Of a DNA stretch of 45,266 bases, positions 1 through 45,227 are shown in pieces (the first letter of the stretch is position 1; the number at the start of each line of letters is the position of its first letter). The DNA comes from a virus (taxonomy: Duplodnaviria; Heunggongvirae; Uroviricota; Caudoviricetes), in IMG/VR virus record IMGVR_UViG_2718217897_000001, positions 1-45,266 of that record. The stretch is one strand, 5' to 3'. The translations under genes were made by a program, and so were the position numbers. The notes under the pieces are model-generated. The model saw only the letters and a list, made by a program, of their open reading frames with translations. It did no database searches and had not been told where the DNA came from.

Positions 1-897
1 TCATTTTAATACCTCTTTGTTTACTGGGGTTAATATCTGAGATGGTAGTTCTGAAAGATTCTCTTGTTCAAGTATATGTTGAAAGCTTTTATTCATCATT
101 ATGATGTTAAAAATCTCATTTACTATTAGTAGGTTGGTTTTTATGAATTTTGAGTTGTTATAAACAGATTTATGTTCAGCGATACTATTTTCATAAAGCT
201 CAATCAACTCCTCTGCAGTCATCCTTTTTGATGGTTTGTGATAATAAAATCCGGCTGCTTTTGCACCTTTATTTCCAACTGTTCTTTGATTTAGAATGTG
301 TTTTATCTTTATAATGTCCCGACTTTTTATTAATTTTTTATCATATGCTTCGGTAAGAATATCTTGTGCTTCCTCAGTTTCACATCTTGCAAATTGCACT
401 GCGAGATACAGAGGCAAATTACCCCGTTCGACTGCTGAGAGAAGTTTATGCTCTCCCTTATCAAGTAGCATATTAATACTGCTCACCCAGTTCGATGAAT
501 ATCCAGTAATCTCACTTATTTCGGAGTCTGAAAGTCCTCTGATTTTCATGTCTTTAATCACCTGTAATAACTCATTAGAACGTGGTCTTCTCCTTGCAAT
601 GTTTTCAACTAAACTCATAACGTAAGCATCTTCTTCTGATACATCTCTTATAATTGCTGGAATAATAGTTTCACCTAATGCAACGAGAGCCTCTATTCTC
701 CCTTGACCACAAATTAAAGCATATTTGAAATCGCCTTCATCAATAGCTCTTACGCTTATAGGCTTGCTTAATCCTCTTTTTTTTATGCTTTCCTTTATTT
801 CTTCATGCACTACCTTATTTCTTGTTCGTGGGTTAAGAAATTTTATTTTTGCAATCTCAATTTGAATTATTGGGAATTCATTTTTTTCAGGCAGCAT
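1..897 (-). CDS. ParB-like protein (ParB/Srx N-terminal domain followed by HTH)
   Basis: Complete 298-aa ORF with stop at 1-3. Contains a GxxRxxA-type ParB box (ICGQGRIEAL) and a downstream HTH-like segment. Overlaps the upstream recombinase gene by 11 nt, so likely co-transcribed. AT-rich by eye. Confidence 0.55.
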   Translation of the reverse strand: MLPEKNEFPIIQIEIAKIKFLNPRTRNKVVHEEIKESIKKRGLSKPISVRAIDEGDFKYALICGQGRIEALVALGETIIPAIIRDVSEEDAYVMSLVENIARRRPRSNELLQVIKDMKIRGLSDSEISEITGYSSNWVSSINMLLDKGEHKLLSAVERGNLPLYLAVQFARCETEEAQDILTEAYDKKLIKSRDIIKIKHILNQRTVGNKGAKAAGFYYHKPSKRMTAEELIELYENSIAEHKSVYNNSKFIKTNLLIVNEIFNIIMMNKSFQHILEQENLSELPSQILTPVNKEVLK

Positions 898-2443
898 ATA
901 GTTCCCTCACTTTCATGCGAGTAATAATTTGTAGAAGTTTATCAAGATTATCAAATCTATAGAGATCTAATCGAATGTTGTTTGTTTCCGTCATGCACAT
1001 TTTATTATATTCGTTTTCAATCTTTGGTATGATATAAAAATCAAGAGGTGAAATATTTTGTGAATTCATTCGTATAACAATTGTTATGTCTGCTTTCTGT
1101 GAGTTATCAAACCGGACTTTCCATCTAAGTTTACCTGATTTCATATGTATGCATTTAGTAACAAGGACGGAAATTAAAAACTCATCATTGATGTAAAGCA
1201 TTGGGGCATATTTATACTCGTCTATATGACAGTTGCTTTTTAAAATTTCACCCTTAAAATCCTCAATTATCTCTGAGTAAAATGATCTTAGTGCTTCATT
1301 TATTTTGAGATAGCTGTAATCATGTTCTGGCTTATAACCAATCAAAGTATATGCTCTTAAAAGACCACCAAATCGGGTTCTATAAACAGAAGATGAAGGG
1401 CCTGTATCATCTTCATCAATGATAAAGCCTGATAGTTTTCCATTAGATTCTAATTTTTGTTTTAGTTTTTCTAATAGATCTTCATTAGTCAAATGAATGG
1501 ATCGGAGCTGAATTATTTCTTGAGCTTTATTGTATTTTTTCTTTGAAATAATAGGTTTATATGCCTTGTCACATCTAACCCATTCATGTTTGGGGTTTTT
1601 TACAAGCCTACTTTTTAATTTAGATGAGGTTTTGTTATATATGTTGTTTCCAATATATTTTTCATTTGTCAAAATTTGATGTATTTTTGCACGAGTCCAT
1701 AATGTACCATTTTCTGCAGGTATGTTCTGTTCATTTAATCTCTCAGCAATAATGAATTCTGGGACGTTATTATCTATAAAGAGATCATATATTCTATTTA
1801 CAATTTTTATTTCATTTTTTGGTCCCGGAATTAATATTACCCTATCTGTTTGAATACTCTTTCTTTTGCGGAAACTCAATATTTCTTTAGCTATGCCATT
1901 TTCGTCTACTAAAAGACGTCTCAGCCCATAACCAGCCATACCGCCTTGATGATAACCAAGCTTTATTAAATTTACTTGCCCTATAAATACCTTTTCAGAT
2001 AGATTCCTGCTGTGATATGCAGCACTAGATCTTTTTATATTCAGTATAACAGAGGACTCTAAAGGGAAATCTTTAGTGGGTATAGGTTCGGAACAATATA
2101 TAAGATCTACACCATTTCTCTCAAATAGAAAGGAATAATATGCCGCTTCATCACTATTTTGAAAACGACCAAAACGGCTCACATCATAAAATAATACAGC
2201 CTGTATATCTATTTTCTTTTGTTCTACATCGCTAAGTAACTGCTGCAAAGAATGCCTGCCTACGATACTGACTCCGCTCTTACCTGAATCATCGTAGGTA
2301 TAAGCGATTTCCATATTGTTCTTTTCAGCATAATCTTTGATATATTCGGACTGATTATGTAAAGAATATTGCTGATGGTCGGTAGACATCCTCAAGTACT
2401 GCGCGACCCTAACTCTATGATTTTTGTCATTTTCGCTAGCCAT
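887..2443 (-). CDS. large serine recombinase (resolvase-type catalytic domain plus recombinase domain)
   Basis: 518-aa ORF. N-terminus has the resolvase signature (YLRMSTDHQ with catalytic Ser, later DVSRFGR). Long C-terminal extension typical of large serine recombinases. AT-rich codon usage. Confidence 0.7.
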   Translation of the reverse strand: MASENDKNHRVRVAQYLRMSTDHQQYSLHNQSEYIKDYAEKNNMEIAYTYDDSGKSGVSIVGRHSLQQLLSDVEQKKIDIQAVLFYDVSRFGRFQNSDEAAYYSFLFERNGVDLIYCSEPIPTKDFPLESSVILNIKRSSAAYHSRNLSEKVFIGQVNLIKLGYHQGGMAGYGLRRLLVDENGIAKEILSFRKRKSIQTDRVILIPGPKNEIKIVNRIYDLFIDNNVPEFIIAERLNEQNIPAENGTLWTRAKIHQILTNEKYIGNNIYNKTSSKLKSRLVKNPKHEWVRCDKAYKPIISKKKYNKAQEIIQLRSIHLTNEDLLEKLKQKLESNGKLSGFIIDEDDTGPSSSVYRTRFGGLLRAYTLIGYKPEHDYSYLKINEALRSFYSEIIEDFKGEILKSNCHIDEYKYAPMLYINDEFLISVLVTKCIHMKSGKLRWKVRFDNSQKADITIVIRMNSQNISPLDFYIIPKIENEYNKMCMTETNNIRLDLYRFDNLDKLLQIITRMKVRELYAA

Positions 2444-2725
2444 GCACGAAACCTCATGGATGATTCAATACAATGTAGTGGATAAAATTGATCAAATTTT
2501 AACCGAATTCAACTGTTTTATCATTGATTAGAGCGAATTTGGTAGATCTTCGAGGTGTATGATAATCGAGAAGAGATGTGAATTATTTAGCTGATATGAC
2601 CGACAGCTTTCGTTATGTGGACTCAATGTCCCCATTTGTAAATGGCTATGCTTAGTCCACATAGGTTAATGGTGTGATTATTAATTCTTTAACTAAATCA
2701 AGATAGTTAATCCATCATGGGAGAG

Positions 2726-3955
2726 TTATGCGGCAATAACTTTGCATTTTTGAGACGAAACATAGTCACTCCACCATTGCATGAGAACCACCCGTTCAGT
2801 GAGATACTCTGCACGATTGTAGGCTGCAATTATTTCATCTTTCTTCGAGTGGGCAAGGGCGGCTTCTAAGACATCAGTCCTAAACTTGCCAGACTCCTCA
2901 GCAGCCGTTCTAGCAATGGATCGCATACCGTGAGCTACAAGCTCACCTCCGAAACCCATACGGATTATGGCCGCATTAGCTGTTTGTTCATGCATGTGAT
3001 TGAGTGGAGCTTTGATACTGGGGAACACCCACTCTCTATGCCCGCTGATGACTTTCATTAAATCCAAAACTCGCAAAGCTTCTTTGCTCAGTGGAACTTT
3101 GTGAGGCTTCTTCATTTTCATAAACTCCGCCGGGATGTTCCACATGCCAGTTTCAATATCAATATCTGACCATCTTGTGCGAACAGCTTCACCTGGGCGA
3201 ACCCATGTGAGAAGTTGCCACTCAATCAGTAGCCTTGTTTCCAAACGGATAGAAGCATTGTTTAGAGCAACCAAGAAGCGAGGGAGTTCGGAAGGGGGTA
3301 ATGCTGGCATATTCTGTTTTTTTGGCTTGCTGAACCGTTGCCCCAGGTTGTCTGCCGGGTTGAATTCTATGAGTTCTTCTGTTGCTGCATAGCGGAAAAT
3401 TTCATTCAGGCGGGATATGATGCGGCGAAGTGTTTCAAGGACACCTCGTTTTTCTATGGGTTCTAAATGCTGTTTAAGCATTTTAGGGCGAATCTCCTTA
3501 ATTGGGGTATCACCCAATGTGGAAAAGATATTTCTCTCTAGGCTTCGCCAGATGTCGTTAGCATGATCTTGGGAGATGCCTGACGTTTTGACTTTCTCAT
3601 CAAGCCACTTCTTGGCTACTGCTTGAAATGTATGTTCCGTGGCATCTTTCAGTGCATTGGCTTTTTGGTTGTTATGAACTTGGGGGTCTATACCATTTGT
3701 AAGCAACGACAAGTATTCATCACGTAAAGCTCGTGCCTTCGCAAGTGTAAGGTGAGGATAGGTTCCTAAGCTCACCTTAGTTCGCTTTTTGGTCACAGGC
3801 ACTGCATATCTGAAATACCAATTTTTCTTCCCTCCCTTCGCCAGGGGAGCGATTCGCAACAGCAAACCATCGCCGTCAAAAAGGTTAACCTCTTTTTCGG
3901 CAGGTTTGGTGCTTTTGATTTCAGTGTCAGTGAGCTTCTTAGCGATTTTGGCCAT
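2726..3955 (-). CDS. intA: tyrosine integrase, P4/IntA (CP4-57) family
   Basis: Translation from MAKIAKKLTDTEIK resembles the N-terminus of E. coli IntA/SlpA, with C-terminal HGxRS and AYNR motifs. The ORF track extends to 4036, but the ATG at 3955 is the likelier start. Lies ~165 bp downstream of a displaced ssrA 3'-end copy, as intA does relative to ssrA in K-12. Confidence 0.8.
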   Translation of the reverse strand: MAKIAKKLTDTEIKSTKPAEKEVNLFDGDGLLLRIAPLAKGGKKNWYFRYAVPVTKKRTKVSLGTYPHLTLAKARALRDEYLSLLTNGIDPQVHNNQKANALKDATEHTFQAVAKKWLDEKVKTSGISQDHANDIWRSLERNIFSTLGDTPIKEIRPKMLKQHLEPIEKRGVLETLRRIISRLNEIFRYAATEELIEFNPADNLGQRFSKPKKQNMPALPPSELPRFLVALNNASIRLETRLLIEWQLLTWVRPGEAVRTRWSDIDIETGMWNIPAEFMKMKKPHKVPLSKEALRVLDLMKVISGHREWVFPSIKAPLNHMHEQTANAAIIRMGFGGELVAHGMRSIARTAAEESGKFRTDVLEAALAHSKKDEIIAAYNRAEYLTERVVLMQWWSDYVSSQKCKVIAA

Positions 3956-4052
3956 GTTTGGGACCCTCGATTTTAGGACCCATCTTCGTGGGTCCCATTC
4001 AGGGTGCCATAACTCGTAGTTCTCAGCAATTCTCACTAGACTACAATAGACG

Positions 4053-4086
4053 TAAAAAAGCCCGCAGAGCTTGTGCTGTGCGGGCT
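4053..4086 (-). terminator. rho-independent terminator downstream of the displaced ssrA 3' fragment
   Basis: Stem agcccgca / tgcgggct with an A-run on the plus strand, which is a U-run for a minus-strand transcript. Confidence 0.5.
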
Positions 4087-4121
4087 TAGTAGACTTTACT
4101 GAACTTCAGTACATCAATATT

Positions 4122-4157
4122 TGGTGGAGCTGGCGGGAGTTGAACCCGTGTCTGAAA
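4122..4157 (-). repeat. displaced ssrA 3'-end copy; prophage attachment-site repeat (attR)
   Basis: tggtggagctggcgggagttgaacccgTgtcTgaaa matches the ssrA 3' end at 44865-44900 with 2 mismatches over ~36 nt. Confidence 0.85.
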
Positions 4158-4186
4158 AATATTAACCTGTTGTTTTAATTATATAT

Positions 4187-4966
4187 TTATCTGAACATGG
4201 CGTTTGCGGCGCTTTTGCGTATCTTCTCTAGACCTTTTGTAGTCCATTTCTCTGGTACAGGTGTAAACCGTAGTGCAAAATCTGCCTCCATATTATCACC
4301 ACTGAAACGTGCCACTCCACGTTCCAATTTTGTTTGCCAAGTGACTTTTTTAGTTTTACCCTCTATATCTTGATATTCAATAATTAATTTTGGACCAGTG
4401 AATGATGAAGAACCGACTAATTTAAGTCTATGTGAAAGATATGCTATATTCAATAGAATATCAATTGCCGCGGTTGGTACAAAAATGTTTTTTGACTTCT
4501 TATCTATACTATATGGTAACGAAAAATCAATATCGTAAGGTGTCGATAAAGTATTGTACATATATACTTTTCTTTCTTTTATTATTTTGAACATTCCATA
4601 CTGGGAGTCGGTTGTAAAAGATTTATCTTCTTTTTTGAATTTTTTCGAAAACAACTCTAAATATAGATTTATGTTTTTTTTATAATTAAAATCCCAATGA
4701 TATCTAAGTGAAATTGCCGCCCCCAATCCTATGTTTGAAAATTTTGTTTGTGGAAGCGTAGGGGCTTGTAAGATATCAACATGAAAACCGTTGAAATCGT
4801 TAACATTCATCTTGATATTTAAAGTGTCTATCACTAAATTGGGTTTATAAGAGAGCCTTCTTTGAAATATCGTTAACCATATTGCATATAATGCAGCAAT
4901 TGCTGAAATGAAAGTACCAACTGAAGATATGTAGGTGATTAGTTTGTCGAATGTAATTGTAATCAA
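4187..4966 (-). CDS. hypothetical membrane-anchored protein (cargo between attR and int)
   Basis: 259-aa ORF with a TTG start and a plausible GGGGA Shine-Dalgarno. One N-terminal hydrophobic helix (ISSVGTFISAIAALYAIWLTIF). Strongly AT-rich versus neighbours. No family recognised. Confidence 0.55.
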   Translation of the reverse strand: MITITFDKLITYISSVGTFISAIAALYAIWLTIFQRRLSYKPNLVIDTLNIKMNVNDFNGFHVDILQAPTLPQTKFSNIGLGAAISLRYHWDFNYKKNINLYLELFSKKFKKEDKSFTTDSQYGMFKIIKERKVYMYNTLSTPYDIDFSLPYSIDKKSKNIFVPTAAIDILLNIAYLSHRLKLVGSSSFTGPKLIIEYQDIEGKTKKVTWQTKLERGVARFSGDNMEADFALRFTPVPEKWTTKGLEKIRKSAANAMFR

Positions 4967-5007
4967 CTTTAAATCCCCGATTTTAAAAATGCGGGGATTA
5001 TTAAATA

Positions 5008-6180
5008 TTAATTATGATTATGCAAATGATTTATCGATGTAAAGTTATCATACTCTTTAAGATACGAACCATAGTGCCTGAAAAGCATCTCCGGCCCTTT
5101 ATGCCCCATTTGAGCTGCAAGCCAAAACAGGTTTGCTCCTCGGCTGATATGGCTGGTGGCGAATGTATGCCTGGTTTGATATGGGTTTCTGTAACGAATA
5201 CCTGCTTTTCGCAATGTTGGCACCCATGCTTTTTTCCTAATTGCATCAGCACTTGCCCAAGGCTTATTGGTCTTTGGATCTTCAAAGACAGTAGCATCCT
5301 TCATGAATGTAAATGGCTTCTGATTTATCAGCGCCAACATTGCCTCTTCTGTCAGTTCAACTTTCCGAGTACCTGCTTTTGTCTTTGTCCCTTTGATAAC
5401 ACCGACAACACTTGCGCTCTGGACATGGGCAGTTTTTCCAACAAAGTCGATATCACGCCATCGAAGGGCACATAATTCAGAACTACGCAGGCCTGTATGT
5501 ATAGCGAACCGGAACAGATTTTCCCATTGTTTGTTTCCGGCTGCTGCTAGTAATGCATCAACTTCTGCTGGTGATAGCGGATCAACTACGTAGCTGCTTT
5601 CTGCTTCTGACTTATCACTTTGGTAGCGCGAAGCTGTTACTAACGATACGGGGTTAATTTGAAGTACCCCATCGGTCACGGCTTCATCAAGTGCTGACCG
5701 CAGGAAAGATAACTGGTTGCGAATGGTTTTTAAGGTCGTTTTCTGGCTTTGAATCCACGCTTTCAGGGTTGCTGGTGTTAATTCACTTGCAGGGCAAATG
5801 TGAAGTGAGGCTAACGCACTACGGCATTTTTTATAACCACCGATCGTGGATGGTGAAAGTTTCCTCGTTTCGCAGATTTCAAGGTATTCGTCCAGGTACA
5901 TTTTTACCGTTTTGCCTGCAGCAGCATTACCAAAAATTTTCAAACGAGCAGAACGGGGAAAATATTCCGCATAAATGAATGTTCCCCTTTCGATCTTATT
6001 ATGAATTTCGCCGAGTGTGCGCTCAGCGTATTTAATGTTCTTTGGTGTTACTTCCAGATTGGAAAGAGGCTCACGACATTTAACTCCTTTGTAGGTGAAA
6101 GTTATATTGATCGTTTCGCCCTGGCGGTGTTTCCTGATTGTTACGCCGCGCGGTAGTTTGAGCAGTTTTGTCTGGCCCAT
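5008..6180 (-). CDS. int: phage tyrosine integrase
   Basis: 390 aa. C-terminal catalytic region has R...HxxR...Y-type motifs (YQTRHTFAT, GHKGPEMLFRHYGSY). Adjacent to attR and an excisionase gene. Confidence 0.85.
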   Translation of the reverse strand: MGQTKLLKLPRGVTIRKHRQGETINITFTYKGVKCREPLSNLEVTPKNIKYAERTLGEIHNKIERGTFIYAEYFPRSARLKIFGNAAAGKTVKMYLDEYLEICETRKLSPSTIGGYKKCRSALASLHICPASELTPATLKAWIQSQKTTLKTIRNQLSFLRSALDEAVTDGVLQINPVSLVTASRYQSDKSEAESSYVVDPLSPAEVDALLAAAGNKQWENLFRFAIHTGLRSSELCALRWRDIDFVGKTAHVQSASVVGVIKGTKTKAGTRKVELTEEAMLALINQKPFTFMKDATVFEDPKTNKPWASADAIRKKAWVPTLRKAGIRYRNPYQTRHTFATSHISRGANLFWLAAQMGHKGPEMLFRHYGSYLKEYDNFTSINHLHNHN

Positions 6181-6359
6181 TTTGCAACCTCACTAAGATC
6201 AATCCACCTCTCCTTAACGCCTTCAACCTTTAAAACCTGAACACCTTCACGCCAAACACCGCGCTGTACACGTTTGTTTATTGCTTCAGGAGTTTCGCCA
6301 GTTTCTTTGCAATAAGTTGAGATTGGAACACAATCGAGGTTCAGCATATGTTTCTCCAC
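6141..6359 (-). CDS. xis: excisionase-like DNA-binding protein
   Basis: 72-aa ORF immediately upstream of and overlapping int. Small basic winged-helix-like sequence. Confidence 0.5.
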   Translation of the reverse strand: MEKHMLNLDCVPISTYCKETGETPEAINKRVQRGVWREGVQVLKVEGVKERWIDLSEVAKWARQNCSNYRAA

Positions 6360-8525: not shown

Positions 8526-8888
8526 TTAATGACCTGCTGCGCGGAGTTTTCCGTCAGGTTCACCGGCAAGAGTCAGTAATTGTCCCTGGTCTTCCTGCAG
8601 AATAGTCAGGCGACCACCGCGATTGACATACATCGGCGTTTCGGTGGTGTCTTCTTCGGAAATTTTCCCGCGGTTAGTCGGGCGAACATATGAGAGTTTG
8701 TGTTTGATTTTCACACGGTTCTCATCAAATGGTTCGATTTCCAGGTTGAGTGAGACCTTACCTTTGGTTTTCGTGTTCATCACACCGGAAGCGACTTCAC
8801 TGAGAACTGCGCCGATTTTGGTTTCAAATACGCCGCCGTCCAGCTCCCCGATAAATGCCTGCACATCAGTACTGCGTTCGCTAGCCAT
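8526..8888 (-). CDS. hypothetical early protein (YfdP-like, 120 aa)
   Basis: ATG at 8888 preceded by GAGGAG. The longer track ORF to 9206 runs through a GC-rich non-coding region and is rejected. Confidence 0.5.
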   Translation of the reverse strand: MASERSTDVQAFIGELDGGVFETKIGAVLSEVASGVMNTKTKGKVSLNLEIEPFDENRVKIKHKLSYVRPTNRGKISEEDTTETPMYVNRGGRLTILQEDQGQLLTLAGEPDGKLRAAGH

Positions 8889-8899
8889 TTTGCTGCTCC

Positions 8900-9320
8900 T
8901 CATCATATCGACCCTGCAAGGCCGATTAGTTTCTCCACAAAACAGAGAAGAACACCTGCGGTAGCAGCCGCCCGGATGGATTGGGTTATGAGCCCGTCGT
9001 CCGGTGATGCTCTTCTCTGTTTTGTAAAAAGGACGGTACCAGCCGGAAGCAAGGGTACAAACTGGTACCGCCAGGACTACACACAGCATAAAGTTGTGGT
9101 GCCGGGTGCCTCCCGGTGCCTGGCGAAGGTTGCACACCAGACGGGTGGGTATCCACAGAAGGTCGACTGTCAGCCTCAACCTTAACCCGCGTGCGCTGAG
9201 CCGCATTCACCACAACGCTAAGGATTCTCTTTGGTTGAAAATACTTAGCTGTTATGTGCCTGTCTTTTCACCACTTCAGGCTCGGTGGTATCCTTTTAAG
9301 CCCGTATACATAAAAGGAAA
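8900..9320 (-). other. GC-rich structured non-coding region inside the early-left operon (candidate ncRNA, antitermination or terminator cluster)
   Basis: No credible ORF. Contains an ~18-bp inverted repeat (acaaaacagagaagaaca ... tgctcttctctgttttgt) and further GC-rich palindromic segments. Confidence 0.3.
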
Positions 9321-40776: not shown

Positions 40777-41646
<870 letters not shown>

Positions 41647-41761: not shown

Positions 41762-41953
41762 GTTAATTTATGAGCAAACTACTTGTCTGCTGTTTTTCTG
41801 TCATTAGTCGTATATAGAATGATTCTCTATGCCTAACAAAGCATCACTAGTGCTAGATTACGTTGTAGTCACTGTTTAAATATCCAGACAAAACATTTCC
41901 TTCTGGGTTGAATGAGTGATAGAGTTTCACCCATTAGACCCCTTGGAGGAATT

Positions 41954-43387
41954 ATGTCTGAATTTGAAGTGTTGGCACAGCATCTGCTGAAGGAAGCCGA
42001 GGCGGAAGAAAAGCTGCGACAGGAAAATGATAAAAAGCTTATCGAGAAAGTGCTGGAAATCTATGATCAGAAGTATGTGGCTGAATTACTGAGAAAAGTC
42101 GGAAAAAATGAGTGGAGCCGTGAAACCATTAACCGCTGGATTAATGGCAAGTGTTTACCAAAATCGTTGACGTCAGTAGAAGAGTCTCTTCTGCGTAAGA
42201 TGCTACCAGAACCACCTGCAAACCATCCGGAATATGCTTTCCGCTTCATTGACTTATTTGCTGGAATTGGAGGGATACGAAAAGGTTTTGAGGCTATTGG
42301 AGGCCAGTGTGTTTTTACCAGTGAATGGAATAAAGATGCTGTGCGTACATACAAGGCCAACTGGTTTAACGATGAACAGGTGCATAAATTCAATCTCGAT
42401 ATTCGGGAAGTCACGTTGAGTGATAAAACCGATGTATTGGAAACGGATGCTTATGCATATATTGATGAGCATGTGCCGGATCATGATGTGCTTCTTGCGG
42501 GGTTCCCGTGCCAGCCATTTAGTCTTGCTGGTGTTAGTAAGAAAAACTCACTTGGCCGTGCGCATGGTTTTGAATGTGAAGCACAAGGAACACTTTTTTT
42601 TGACGTGGCACGTATTATACGAGCAAAAAAACCGGCAATTTTTGTGCTGGAAAATGTCAAAAATCTGAAGAGCCATGATAAGGGTAAAACTTTCAAAGTC
42701 ATTATGGAGACCCTTGACGAGCTGGGCTACGAAGTTGCCGATGCTGCAGAAATGGGAAAAAACGATCCAAAGATTATCGATGGGAAGCATTTTTTGCCTC
42801 AGCATCGTGAACGCATTGTTCTGGTCGGATTTAGACGAGATCTGAATATTCACAAGGGGTTTACCTTGCGTGATATCAGTCGTTTTTATCCGGAACACCG
42901 CCCATCATTTGGTGAATTGCTGGAGCCTGTAGTCGACAGTAAATATATACTTACGCCAAAACTATGGGAGTACCTTTATAACTACGCCAAAAAGCATGCA
43001 GCCAAGGGGAATGGTTTTGGCTTTGGGTTGGTCAATCCTGAGAATAAGGAAAGCATTGCACGCACACTTTCTGCCAGATATCACAAAGACGGATCAGAAA
43101 TTCTTATTGATCGTGGTTGGGATATGGCAACGGGAGAGGCTGACTTTATGAATGAGAGTAATCAGGCTCGTCGACCACGCAGGCTGACTCCCCGAGAGTG
43201 CGCACGCCTTATGGGATTTGAAAAACCTGGAGGGAAACCATTCCGTATTCCGGTTTCAGATACTCAGTCATATCGGCAGTTCGGTAACTCAGTTGTGGTG
43301 CCAGTATTTGAAGCTGTTGCCAGACTTCTGGAACCCTATATCCTCAAAGCTGTTTCTGCTGATGCTGGTAAGACTGGGCAGCCTTGA
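41954..43387 (+). CDS. DNA cytosine-5 methyltransferase, Dcm/M.EcoRII-like (CCWGG specificity inferred)
   Basis: Motif [18 protein letters not shown], motif [13 protein letters not shown], motif [11 protein letters not shown], motif [12 protein letters not shown]. Near-collinear with E. coli Dcm as recalled. ATG at 41954 after GGAGGA; the track ORF starts at 41912. Confidence 0.85.
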
Positions 43388-43421
43388 GAACACCTCCCGG
43401 CCTTTTAAGCCGGGAGTCAGC

Positions 43422-44636
43422 CTATGATAGTTCAGCGTAAAGCTCTATCAGCTCAGTAATGAATGCTCCGAGCGTTATTAATTCTTCTCTAACTGCTTCT
43501 GGGTATTTTTTATGTAAAGTTGATGGTACAACGAGTCTGACACCCGCATCTTTCATTTCTCGGTATTGTGCTGAAGAAACACCTTCTTGCAGTGTAAATA
43601 AATGTACCTGATGGATTTTATCTGCTTCATTCAGTATCTGACGCCAGCGATCTTTGCAGGTGGTCTTTACTGCCAGCATACGTAAGTTTTCTACAGGAAA
43701 TTCAACGTTATGATATGCCTCTGCTGAAGGAAACAGGAAATCTGGTTTTTTATTACCTTCAGTAACTGCCTGAGTGGAGAAATGCCGTAGTCCGTGCTCG
43801 ATAAAAAGCTTCTCTAGGTGAAGTTCAAGTGATTTGCCTGCCCTTGATTTACGTCGATTACTGACAGAGTTGGCTAATGCAATAAACTCATCTACAGAAT
43901 CGAATCCTTTCTTAATAATATCAAGAACATGTAATTCCTCGACGAGTAGAAAAATATCATACTCGACACGCCGACGGTCAATCAGTTGCTCATCTGGATC
44001 CTTGGAGTTTTTAGCATAATGGCCAGCAGCATATTGAATAATTTCGTTTCCAGAAGGAAAACGCTTCTTCCAGTCTTCAGGAATAACATATTTATGATTT
44101 ACTGGAGTTTGCTGAAGAGATAATCCGCCCAAAATTTGTCCGGCAGGGCCGGAAATTAGGGTTCCAGGTATGATTTCGCCAATAGCAGACTCGATGATAT
44201 CCTCTTCATCGGGATTGACGCAGACCCATATATCTACCTCGGAACAGTCAGTGTTCTGTTCGTTTAACCTGAAAGCAAGAATTGTGAGAGCTCCTGTATT
44301 TTCAGGGTTCTGTAATGGACTTCCTCTCCCCCAGCGCGTAATTCTTTTTTCGTTTCGGGTCTTACCAAAATAACGGTTGTTGTAATAAATTGCGCGTGCT
44401 TGGGTATCTGGGCAATCATGGGATGATACATGCGCAGTAAGGAAGACTGAAGGGTTCAGTTCGCGAGTATGATTGATAGATGGAAAAAGCTTTTCAACGA
44501 TATTTGAGGGGATATAAAGTCCGACCTGATGGCCACCTGTTGCGCCAGTGTCGTTTGCAGAAAGGCGTTTGATGTAGATAAAGTAATTCCCGCTTGCGAT
44601 ATCAAGCAGCCAGTTATGAAAAACCGACATATACAT
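43422..44636 (-). CDS. EcoRII-like type IIE restriction endonuclease
   Basis: 404 aa, convergent with a Dcm-like methyltransferase, which is the known EcoRII R-M arrangement. Sequence resembles EcoRII as recalled. Confidence 0.7.
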   Translation of the reverse strand: MYMSVFHNWLLDIASGNYFIYIKRLSANDTGATGGHQVGLYIPSNIVEKLFPSINHTRELNPSVFLTAHVSSHDCPDTQARAIYYNNRYFGKTRNEKRITRWGRGSPLQNPENTGALTILAFRLNEQNTDCSEVDIWVCVNPDEEDIIESAIGEIIPGTLISGPAGQILGGLSLQQTPVNHKYVIPEDWKKRFPSGNEIIQYAAGHYAKNSKDPDEQLIDRRRVEYDIFLLVEELHVLDIIKKGFDSVDEFIALANSVSNRRKSRAGKSLELHLEKLFIEHGLRHFSTQAVTEGNKKPDFLFPSAEAYHNVEFPVENLRMLAVKTTCKDRWRQILNEADKIHQVHLFTLQEGVSSAQYREMKDAGVRLVVPSTLHKKYPEAVREELITLGAFITELIELYAELS

Positions 44637-44864: not shown

Positions 44865-44900
44865 TGGTGGAGCTGGCGGGAGTTGAACCCGCGTCCGAAA
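44865..44900 (-). repeat. attachment-site repeat within the ssrA 3' end (attL)
   Basis: Matches 4122-4157. Confidence 0.85.
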
Positions 44901-45227
44901 TTCCTACATCCTCGGTACTACATGCTTAGTCAGTCTTTATATTCGCTTGCCAGCTGCGGACGGACACGCCACTAACAAACTAGCCTGATTAAGTTTTAAC
45001 GCTTCAACCCCAGGCAGGGCTTCCACGCGATCTCTTTTGGGTTTGACCTCTCTTGATCCCCGTCCTAAGAGCGGAGGCTAGGGAGAGAGGGCTCTAAGCA
45101 GGTTATTAAGCTGCTAAAGCGTAGTTTTCGTCGTTTGCGACTATTTTTTGCGGCTTTTTACGAGGCCAACCGCCCCTCGGCATGCACCTTGGGTTTCGCA
45201 AATCCCGTCGAATCCAGAATCAGCCCC
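44865..45227 (-). ncRNA. ssrA: tmRNA (SsrA), intact, 363 nt
   Basis: Reverse complement begins GGGGCTGATTCTGGATTCGACGGG and ends CCCGCCAGCTCCACCA. Encodes the ANDENYALAA tag region (gcaaacgacgaaaactacgctttagcagcttaa). Confidence 0.97.

What the first reader, a model, noticed from the sequence alone, without database searches (positions are those of the whole stretch)
4187..4966. AT-rich membrane-anchored orphan gene between attR and the phage integrase
A 259-aa protein with a single N-terminal TM helix and an unassigned soluble domain occupies the short segment between the attachment site and int, a common site for lysogenic-conversion and defence cargo. Its composition is much more AT-rich than int or the neighbouring island. 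It uses a TTG start and has no recognisable partner gene, which fits single-gene abortive-infection or exclusion proteins.
Basis: partly seen in the sequence, partly recalled or inferred. Interest (0 to 1): 0.6.

Follow-up and report, generated by a model that had tools for sequence, protein, structure and literature searches.

The report
Membrane-anchored prophage cargo gene, likely antiviral
A real but uncharacterised gene for a small membrane-anchored protein sits in the slot of an E. coli prophage where sister prophages carry known anti-virus systems, so it is a credible but untested candidate for a new single-protein defence against other phages.

Summary
Window 4187-4966 (-) encodes a 259-aa protein with a TTG start, one N-terminal membrane helix and 32% GC. 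It lies between the integrase (5008-6180) and the attR copy of the ssrA 3' end (4121-4148) of a ~40.7-kb E. coli prophage.

The gene is real. It belongs to PHROG 7259 and has 123 diverged representatives, all hypothetical. Its dN/dS is about 0.2. The AlphaFold model is confident (pLDDT 95.7).

The defence reading rests on context only.
- About 400 E. coli genomes share the integrase but only 49 carry this gene. Others carry DarT-NADAR, ATPase+RloB or Septu/Gabija-like ATPases in the same slot.
- The gene stays intact beside decayed integrases in other genera.
- The identical protein (WP_127490476.1) is listed as an untested "predicted novel defense gene" by DefensePredictor.

No experiment supports a function. 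It is a good candidate, not a surprise.

The parts
4187..4966 (-). Coding sequence of the 259-aa protein (called X here), TTG start; identical to RefSeq WP_127490476.1
   Evidence: Family membership: PHROG 7259, E=5e-86. 123 representatives at 50% identity. dN/dS about 0.2.
4868..4942 (-). N-terminal transmembrane helix (about residues 9-33) with a conserved small-residue pattern (S14, G17/T18, S21/A22, A24/A25, A28)
   Evidence: AlphaFold helix 6-39. Column conservation. Synonymous sites have diverged while the amino acids are kept.
4841..4864 (-). Juxtamembrane motif Q35-R36-R-L-S39-Y40-K41-P42, the most conserved stretch of the family
   Evidence: Q35 is invariant in 61/61 sequences and R36 is present in 58/61. 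The cluster of positive charges after the helix implies a cytoplasmic C-terminal domain; 122 of 130 members show this bias.
4190..4840 (-). Fast-diverging soluble domain (residues 43-259): beta-sandwich with two inserted helices and a basic C-terminal helix
4972..4999 (-). Hairpin in the int-X spacer (AATCCCCG...CGGGGATT). Its 3' arm contains the Shine-Dalgarno-like GGGGA (4974-4978), 7 nt before the TTG.
   Evidence: Conserved in 10 alleles, with compensatory changes in 5 of 10 pairs. Folding energies are -12 to -22 kcal/mol in nine alleles and -4.8 in the decayed Cedecea copy. The hairpin is specific to the X cassette.
4997..5026 (-). Promoter-like site (TTTGCA, 18 nt, AATAAT) in the last codons of int, abutting the hairpin
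   Evidence: Consensus scan only. A similar arrangement is visible in other alleles. Not shown to function.
4121..4148 (-). attR core: 28-nt exact copy of the ssrA 3' end
4058..4072 (-). Terminator-like hairpin of the displaced original ssrA 3' end; would end read-through from X
5008..6180 (-). Prophage tyrosine integrase, upstream of X and co-directional with it
   Evidence: 84-88% identical to the integrases of loci whose X is only 25-46% identical.
6141..6359 (-). Excisionase-like small gene overlapping the int start
   Evidence: Annotated as excisionase in L027 and in phage LLS.
44865..45227 (-). tmRNA gene (ssrA), whose 3' end is attL of the prophage

Best explanation
X is accessory cargo of an ssrA-integrating temperate phage. 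It occupies a swappable slot between int and the attachment site, and it most likely protects the lysogen against other phages.

Proposed mechanism:
1. The protein is made at a low level. It has a TTG start and its ribosome-binding site sits in a hairpin. It may be transcribed from its own promoter at the end of int.
2. It inserts in the inner membrane with a short N-terminus outside and the 215-residue domain in the cytoplasm.
3. The conserved small-residue helix and the QR..SYKP collar make it self-associate or dock on a membrane partner.
4. The fast-diverging beta-sandwich domain recognises an allele-specific phage component at the inner face of the membrane.
5. Recognition then either perturbs the membrane and aborts the infection, as in PdpSau and AbiP, or blocks or intercepts genome entry.

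Shown: the gene, the family, the predicted topology bias, the conservation pattern, the hotspot, and retention after prophage decay. Inferred: expression in the lysogen, oligomerisation, the trigger, and any antiviral effect. The stated confidence of 0.5 is for the defence role as a whole. About 0.3 of it is for abortive membrane action and about 0.2 for a block at entry.
For: Hotspot in E. coli:
- 411 of 5426 complete genomes carry this integrase at >=90% nucleotide identity; only 49 carry X.
- Homology breaks 40-62 nt inside the int 3' end.
- The slot holds DarT+NADAR, ATPase+RloB, a PtuA/GajA/AriA-like AAA_15/AAA_21 ATPase with Dam, HATPase_c+DUF4325, ParA-like plus two genes, and other unknown pairs.
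- Phage phiNP carries an AAA ATPase there.

Retention: X stays intact next to truncated int remnants in Enterobacter hormaechei, Cedecea and Citrobacter. In Enterobacter the remnant lies between two ssrA cores. In Cedecea it sits beside AbiTii and near a SymE toxin gene.

Selection: dN/dS is about 0.2, so the gene is under purifying selection, yet X is 25-46% identical where Int is 84-88% identical.

Protein features:
- The helix is the most constrained region.
- Cytoplasmic orientation is predicted in 122 of 130 members.
- All alleles are 31-36% GC.

Published prediction: the identical protein scores a mean log-odds of 8.59 (cut-off 4) as a 'predicted novel defense gene' in DefensePredictor Table S10.

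Architectural precedents: PdpSau/AbiP and SNIPE.
Against: - There is no homology to any PADLOC, Pfam or NCBIfam family.
- There is no solved relative, and only weak generic fold matches.
- No conserved catalytic-looking residue set is evident.
- X always follows this one integrase lineage at a fixed 40-41-nt spacing, with its ribosome-binding site in a hairpin. This could equally mean a function tied to int expression rather than to the lysogenic state.
- The DefensePredictor entry is a prediction. Only 45% of the 94 units the authors tested protected, and this one was not among them.
- Hotspot slots also carry non-defence cargo.
Confidence: 0.5

Rival explanations
1. X is a phage-serving function co-expressed with integrase during establishment of lysogeny or induction. 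It could be a membrane protein that modulates host physiology or envelope at those moments, rather than an immunity protein of the lysogen.
For: - X is found only behind this integrase lineage or its remnants, always 40-41 nt after the int stop.
- The Shine-Dalgarno-like purines lie in the 3' arm of a hairpin that starts about 10 nt after the int stop. This would suit translational coupling or repression on int transcripts.
- The TTG start is conserved.
Against: - X remains intact in several genera where int is reduced to its last 70-110 codons.
- In about 350 E. coli prophages with the same integrase, X is replaced by unrelated cargo, so it is dispensable for integration and excision.
- X and int have discordant synonymous divergence: X dS is 0.25-0.62 beside int dS of 1.6-2.0.
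Confidence: 0.2
2. X is a lysogenic-conversion factor unrelated to phages. It could be a membrane protein affecting stress tolerance, colonisation or another host trait, carried as a moron.
For: - It has a terminal position in the prophage and AT-rich composition.
- The exact protein is found on at least 999 contigs, including ST131 lineages.
- It is retained after prophage decay.
Against: - The recognisable cargos in the slot are mostly defence-type, and none is a recognisable virulence or metabolic gene.
- Extreme allelic divergence within one genus-level host range, with 22-30% identical alleles in E. coli, Salmonella and Citrobacter, is more typical of arms-race genes.
- The ML defence score is high.
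Confidence: 0.12
3. The ORF is a chance or decaying reading frame in AT-rich spacer DNA and makes no functional protein.
For: - It has a non-ATG start and no family annotation.
- Some older annotations call only a 215-aa version.
Against: - 123 diverged full-length relatives of 216-324 aa exist.
- dN/dS is about 0.2.
- Residues stay conserved while synonymous sites are saturated.
- The AlphaFold model has pLDDT 95.7.
Confidence: 0.02

Closest known systems
PHROG 7259 (phage protein family of unknown function)
   Same: Full-length profile match, E=5e-86; gene 31 of phage LLS matches the same PHROG at E=4.9e-43.
   Different: The PHROG carries no function, so membership says nothing about mechanism.
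DefensePredictor cluster WP_127490476.1 (Science 2026, PMC13092281, Table S10)
   Same: Identical 259-aa sequence. Listed as predicted defensive with mean log-odds 8.59 and no meaningful homology to known systems.
   Different: It is a prediction only. It does not appear in Table S6, which lists the 94 tested units. The family motifs are absent from all supplementary files held as text, which include the validated-protein sequences of Table S8.
PdpSau (S. aureus prophages) and lactococcal AbiP: single-protein, membrane-anchored abortive-infection proteins
   Same: Similar size (PdpSau 278 aa). N-terminal membrane helix and a positively charged cytoplasmic C-terminal domain. Prophage accessory gene acting alone, with a membrane-potential effect on infection (PMC10127798).
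   Different: - No sequence similarity was found, though PdpSau and AbiP were not compared with X directly.
- Those proteins have an OB-fold-like nucleic-acid-binding region, whereas X is an Ig-like beta-sandwich.
- PdpSau sits next to the lysis module, not next to int.
- The phenotype of X is untested.
SNIPE, a membrane-bound nuclease that cuts phage DNA during injection (PMC13190303)
   Same: The concept is the same: a constitutively membrane-localised defence protein placed where phage genomes enter.
   Different: X has no nuclease domain or motif and no detectable homology to any defence family. Association with entry machinery is untested.
Variable defence hotspots of temperate phages and satellites (P2/P4 hotspots, PMC9122126)
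   Same: A fixed slot flanked by conserved phage genes, in which unrelated antiviral systems replace one another. Here the slot lies between int and attP.
   Different: This is a different phage lineage (ssrA-integrating, with yfdP/Q/R-type early genes and an invertible tail-fibre region) and a different slot. I found no published description of it. The P2/P4 comparison rests on that paper's abstract and my own knowledge.
Cytoplasmic Ig-like domain of inward-rectifier K+ channels (KirBac3.1, 1xl4)

Membership tests
PHROG 7259 | Significant full-length match to the family profile | tested here: met
   E=5.3e-86, residues 7-259 against profile positions 6-270 of 277
Any known or candidate defence family in PADLOC-DB 2.0 | Profile match to a defence protein model | tested here: not met
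   0 families at E<=1. DefensePredictor's own HHblits comparison gives 6% coverage to drt1b.
Any Pfam or NCBIfam family | Profile match | tested here: not met
   0 families for X. No family is shared by more than one of 61 relatives.
PdpSau/AbiP-type membrane-anchored abortive-infection proteins | N-terminal transmembrane helix with a cytoplasmic C-terminal domain | tested here: met
   Helix 6-39. Mean K+R is 3.6 after the helix and 0.55 before it; 122 of 130 members show the bias. This is a prediction by the positive-inside rule, not an experiment.
PdpSau/AbiP-type membrane-anchored abortive-infection proteins | OB-fold-like nucleic-acid-binding domain | tested here: not met
PdpSau/AbiP-type membrane-anchored abortive-infection proteins | Infection-triggered loss of membrane potential and abortive phenotype | not testable with these tools
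   Needs phage challenge and membrane-potential dyes.
Prophage defence-hotspot cargo | Occupies a slot between conserved phage genes in which recognised defence systems alternate | tested here: met
   DarT-NADAR, ATPase+RloB and PtuA/GajA-like ATPase sit at the same int-attR slot of prophages with 93-99% identical int DNA.
Periplasm-facing superinfection-exclusion proteins (lipoprotein or signal-peptide type) | Signal peptide or lipobox with an exported domain | tested here: not met
   No positive n-region and no lipobox cysteine; the protein has 0 Cys. Positive charges follow the helix.
Type IV pilin / archaellin-like proteins | Class III signal peptide before the hydrophobic helix | tested here: not met
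Inward-rectifier K+ channel family | Two transmembrane helices with a pore loop and selectivity filter | tested here: not met
   Only one hydrophobic helix and no IRK Pfam match.

The most novel reading that the evidence does not exclude
X founds a new class of one-protein immune sensors. In this reading, a single-pass helix bundle held shut by a ring of cytoplasmic Ig-like domains, loosely like the cytoplasmic gate of Kir channels, opens when the allele-specific domain binds a phage protein or the incoming genome. This depolarises the cell. The dozens of 22-45% identical alleles in Enterobacteriaceae would then be a specificity repertoire, exchanged as cassettes at the int-attP junction.
Probability: 0.1. 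Interest if true: 0.7.

Novelty: new member of a known kind. Interest (0 to 1): 0.45.

Why it matters
If X protects against phages, it would add a compact, single-gene, membrane-based defence family with no relation to known systems. It is present on at least 999 public contigs carrying the identical protein, including the pandemic ST131 lineage.

It would also define the int-attP junction of ssrA-integrating enterobacterial phages as a defence hotspot that can be mined systematically. At least four of the alternative cargos seen here are themselves uncharacterised.

The family is easy to test. The gene is small, an isolated K-12 phage (LLS) carries an allele, and natural allelic diversity offers ready-made specificity swaps.

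Tried and rejected
**Searches that gave nothing**
- Pfam, NCBIfam and PADLOC scans of X gave no match. Pfam on 61 relatives gave no shared family.
- A PDB sequence-profile search gave nothing.
- BFVD Foldseek gave nothing credible: the best TM-score was 0.22.
- AFDB50 was not available.

**Searches that failed or added little**
- The profile search of the 5.8-billion-protein set with alignment A4 returned only the close subfamily, because of the candidate cap.
- With A1 it found nothing in one-genome-per-species contigs. In IMG/VR it found only prophage ends.
- Literature searches by accession, PHROG id or hotspot terms found no description of the gene.

**Ideas considered and dropped**
- That the conserved helix reflects recent DNA-level recombination. 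Rejected because only about half of the conserved residues share a codon, the same as elsewhere in the gene.
- That the hairpin belongs to int. Rejected because other cargos bring different int tails and different hairpins.
- That X is under gene-wide positive selection. Rejected because dN/dS is about 0.2.

Full report
**1. What is in the sequence**

The window is an E. coli chromosome segment around ssrA.
- The tmRNA gene lies at 44865-45227 on the minus strand.
- Its last 28 nt recur exactly at 4121-4148. The roughly 40.7 kb in between is therefore a prophage bounded by attL and attR.
- Read on the minus strand, the prophage runs as follows:
  - It begins with an EcoRII-type restriction enzyme and a Dcm-like methylase, a GIY-YIG protein, an invertase and tail-fibre genes.
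  - It continues through structural and early genes (yfdQ- and yfdR-like).
  - It ends with xis (6141-6359), a tyrosine integrase (5008-6180) and the ORF in question (4187-4966).
- Beyond attR lies the displaced ssrA terminator (4058-4072). After it comes a second island that opens with a P4-type integrase (2726-4036) followed by a serine recombinase and ParB-like genes.

- The protein is 259 aa with a TTG start and one N-terminal hydrophobic helix.
- It has no partner gene in the segment.
- Its GC is 32%, against 44% for int and 50% for the prophage.
- One detail is off: the neighbouring island's cargo (1-2443) is about as AT-rich as the ORF.

**2. It is a real gene and a real family**

- RefSeq annotates the same 259-aa product as hypothetical.
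- The protein matches PHROG 7259 (unknown function) at E=5e-86.
- An exhaustive HMMER scan of 1.84 billion representatives found 123 relatives at E<=0.001. Nearly all are full-length; the 130 family proteins over 200 aa span 216-324 aa.
- Named members are all "hypothetical" and come from E. coli, Salmonella, Citrobacter, Cronobacter, Enterobacter, Klebsiella and Cedecea.
- Against two close alleles, dN/dS is about 0.2.
- In distant alleles the conserved residues use different codons about half the time, so conservation acts on the protein, not on the DNA.
- With 61 diverse relatives, AlphaFold gives pLDDT 95.7 and pTM 0.86.
- The N-terminal residues are conserved and most alleles also start with TTG, which supports the annotated start.

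**3. What the protein looks like**

- A long helix (residues 6-39) is followed by a beta-rich domain. That domain has two inserted helices and a basic C-terminal helix.
- The hydrophobic part of the helix carries a small-residue pattern at positions 14, 17/18, 21/22, 24/25 and 28.
- It is followed by the most conserved stretch of the family, Q35-R36-x-x-S-Y-K-P. Q35 is invariant in 61 of 61 sequences.
- Small-residue patterns of this kind typically mediate helix-helix packing in membranes. This is established knowledge, not tested here.
- Across 130 members, the 15 residues after the helix hold 3.6 Lys+Arg on average, against 0.55 before it; 122 of 130 show this bias. By the positive-inside rule the soluble domain is cytoplasmic.
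- No Pfam, NCBIfam or PADLOC model matches X. No Pfam family is shared by more than one of 61 relatives.
- No PDB sequence matches.
- The few invariant residues of the soluble domain (N78-x-G-x-G-x-A84, W91, Y198-x-D200) look like turn and core positions. That is inference.
- The fold therefore says "binding module on a membrane tether" and no more.

**4. The conserved module and its regulation**

- Wherever I could see context, X follows this integrase lineage or a remnant of it, with a 40-41-nt gap. This holds for phage LLS, where X is followed by attP. It also holds for prophages of Klebsiella, Enterobacter and Citrobacter.
- Int is 84-88% identical among these loci and Xis is 88-93% identical, but X is only 25-46% identical.
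- The gap holds a hairpin whose stem changes by compensatory substitutions in 5 of 10 pairs. Folding energies are -12 to -22 kcal/mol in nine alleles and -4.8 in the decayed Cedecea copy.
- The 3' arm of the hairpin contains the Shine-Dalgarno-like purines, 6-10 nt before the start codon.
- A promoter-like TTTGCA-18-AATAAT sits in the last int codons and ends at the foot of the hairpin.
- One inference follows. A transcript started there would lack the 5' arm and have a free ribosome-binding site, whereas read-through from int would hide it. This is untested.
- The hairpin belongs to the X cassette. Prophages with other cargo have different int C-terminal tails and different hairpins.

**5. 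The slot is a cargo hotspot rich in defence systems**

- 411 of 5426 complete E. coli genomes carry this integrase at >=90% DNA identity. Only 49 carry X.
- Alignments break 40-62 nt inside the int 3' end.
- I sampled 12 of the 40 evenly spaced hits. The cargo between int and attR was:

| Cargo in the slot | Calls |
|---|---|
| DarT plus NADAR antitoxin, seen three times | 56, 91, 92; confirmed by Pfam and PADLOC in 63, 64 |
| ATP/GTP-binding protein plus RloB | 90 |
| AAA_15/AAA_21 ATPase matching PtuA, GajA and AriA models, followed by Dam | 54, 63, 64, 89 |
| HATPase_c plus DUF4325 plus an unknown gene | 57, 61, 64 |
| ParA-like ATPase plus two unknowns | 60 |
| Two further unknown pairs | 55, 59 |
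| Another X allele split by ISVsa5 | 58, 62 |

- Citrobacter phage phiNP has an AAA ATPase in the slot.
- X and int also have discordant histories: X dS is 0.25-0.62 next to int dS of 1.6-2.0. The junction is therefore a recombination breakpoint.

**6. Retention without the phage**

- In Enterobacter hormaechei, an intact X sits after a truncated int (last ~73 codons) between two ssrA cores.
- In Cedecea neteri, ssrA is followed by AbiTii, a decayed int fragment and an intact X, with a SymE toxin gene nearby.
- A 272-aa allele that is common in E. coli was seen in Citrobacter freundii contigs. There it follows a 74-aa ORF, probably an int fragment though I did not check this, at the same 39-40-nt spacing.
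- X therefore survives loss of integrase function. This argues that it works independently of int and is useful, or at least harmless, to the host.

**7. Prior knowledge**

- The window protein is 100% identical to WP_127490476.1.
- That accession is a cluster representative in Table S10 of DefensePredictor (Science 2026, PMC13092281). Its mean log-odds is 8.59, against a stringent cut-off of 4. It is labelled "Predicted novel defense gene". Its best hit to a known system covers 6% of the query.
- The authors tested 94 transcription units from 69 strains and validated 42. This protein was not found in Table S6, which the paper cites for the 94 selected units. The family motifs do not occur in any of the supplementary files held as text.
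- The defence idea is therefore already on record as a prediction, and it is unvalidated.
- The closest functional analogues I could read about are PdpSau and AbiP and the membrane-bound nuclease SNIPE.
  - PdpSau and AbiP are single membrane-anchored proteins with a cytoplasmic domain. PdpSau causes abortive infection with loss of membrane integrity.
  - I found no sequence similarity to either. X lacks their OB-fold and nuclease features.

**8. Verdict**

- I put 0.5 on an antiviral role. About 0.3 of that is for an abortive, membrane-acting mechanism and 0.2 for a block at genome entry.
- I put 0.2 on an int-coupled phage function, 0.12 on another conversion trait, and about 0.02 on a spurious ORF. 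The remainder is unassigned.
- It is a new, uncharacterised member of a familiar kind of thing: prophage hotspot cargo. It is a good wet-lab candidate rather than a surprise.

Noticed in passing
window 41912-44636: The attL end of the same prophage carries a complete EcoRII-type restriction enzyme (43422-44636, -) and a Dcm-like C5 methylase (41912-43387, +). A GIY-YIG protein (40777-41601, -) lies next to them, so both prophage ends carry defence-type cargo.
   Followed up: partly
window 4967-5007 and the same spacer in L003, L005, L009, L011, L020, L022, L023, L029: The hairpin between int and X is conserved by compensatory changes, and the Shine-Dalgarno-like purines of X sit in its 3' arm. 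Most alleles use TTG as the start codon. The hairpin moves with the X cassette and not with int.
   Followed up: yes
window 4149-4186; L009, L011, L003 downstream of X: X ends only 5-37 nt from the ssrA-identical att core, and that spacer is not conserved between alleles. Any arm-type Int binding sites on this side would have to lie inside variable cargo, or all lie on the other side of the core. This is odd for an integrase with an arm-binding domain.
   Followed up: no
window 1-4036: A second island lies in tandem at the displaced ssrA end. It has a P4-type integrase (2726-4036), a 518-aa serine recombinase (887-2443) and ParB/RepB-like genes (1-897, and one more in L001). The cargo is 29-37% GC and of unknown function.
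   Followed up: no
L025-L032, L039-L043 (E. coli and Citrobacter prophages with the same integrase): The int-attR slot holds at least nine different cargos. Several are uncharacterised: pairs of 271+127 aa and 82+272 aa, HATPase_c+DUF4325+199 aa, and ParA-like+137+221 aa. They would be defence candidates by the same logic.
   Followed up: partly
L004, L005-L008, L033-L034: Truncated-int plus intact-X remnants occur at ssrA in Enterobacter and Cedecea. In Citrobacter (L033-L034) the remnant was seen but its position relative to ssrA was not checked. In Cedecea, AbiTii lies directly upstream. In E. hormaechei a 272-aa unknown gene lies upstream and a 191-aa unknown gene downstream.
   Followed up: partly
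L019, L020 against the window: Closely related X alleles (78-89% aa identity, dS 0.25-0.62) sit beside integrases whose synonymous sites are saturated (dS 1.6-2.0). This shows recombination between int and X.
   Followed up: partly
L011 7033-11162; L036 6068-9418: The P4-type islands that follow attR in other genera carry SIR2_2 plus DUF87 in Enterobacter, and an STM3845-family protein plus a reverse transcriptase in Citrobacter. The ssrA locus therefore stacks two defence-bearing elements side by side.
   Followed up: no
window 8526-9206: There is a local GC peak of about 55% over a 226-aa ORF on the minus strand within the early region. It was not examined.
   Followed up: no
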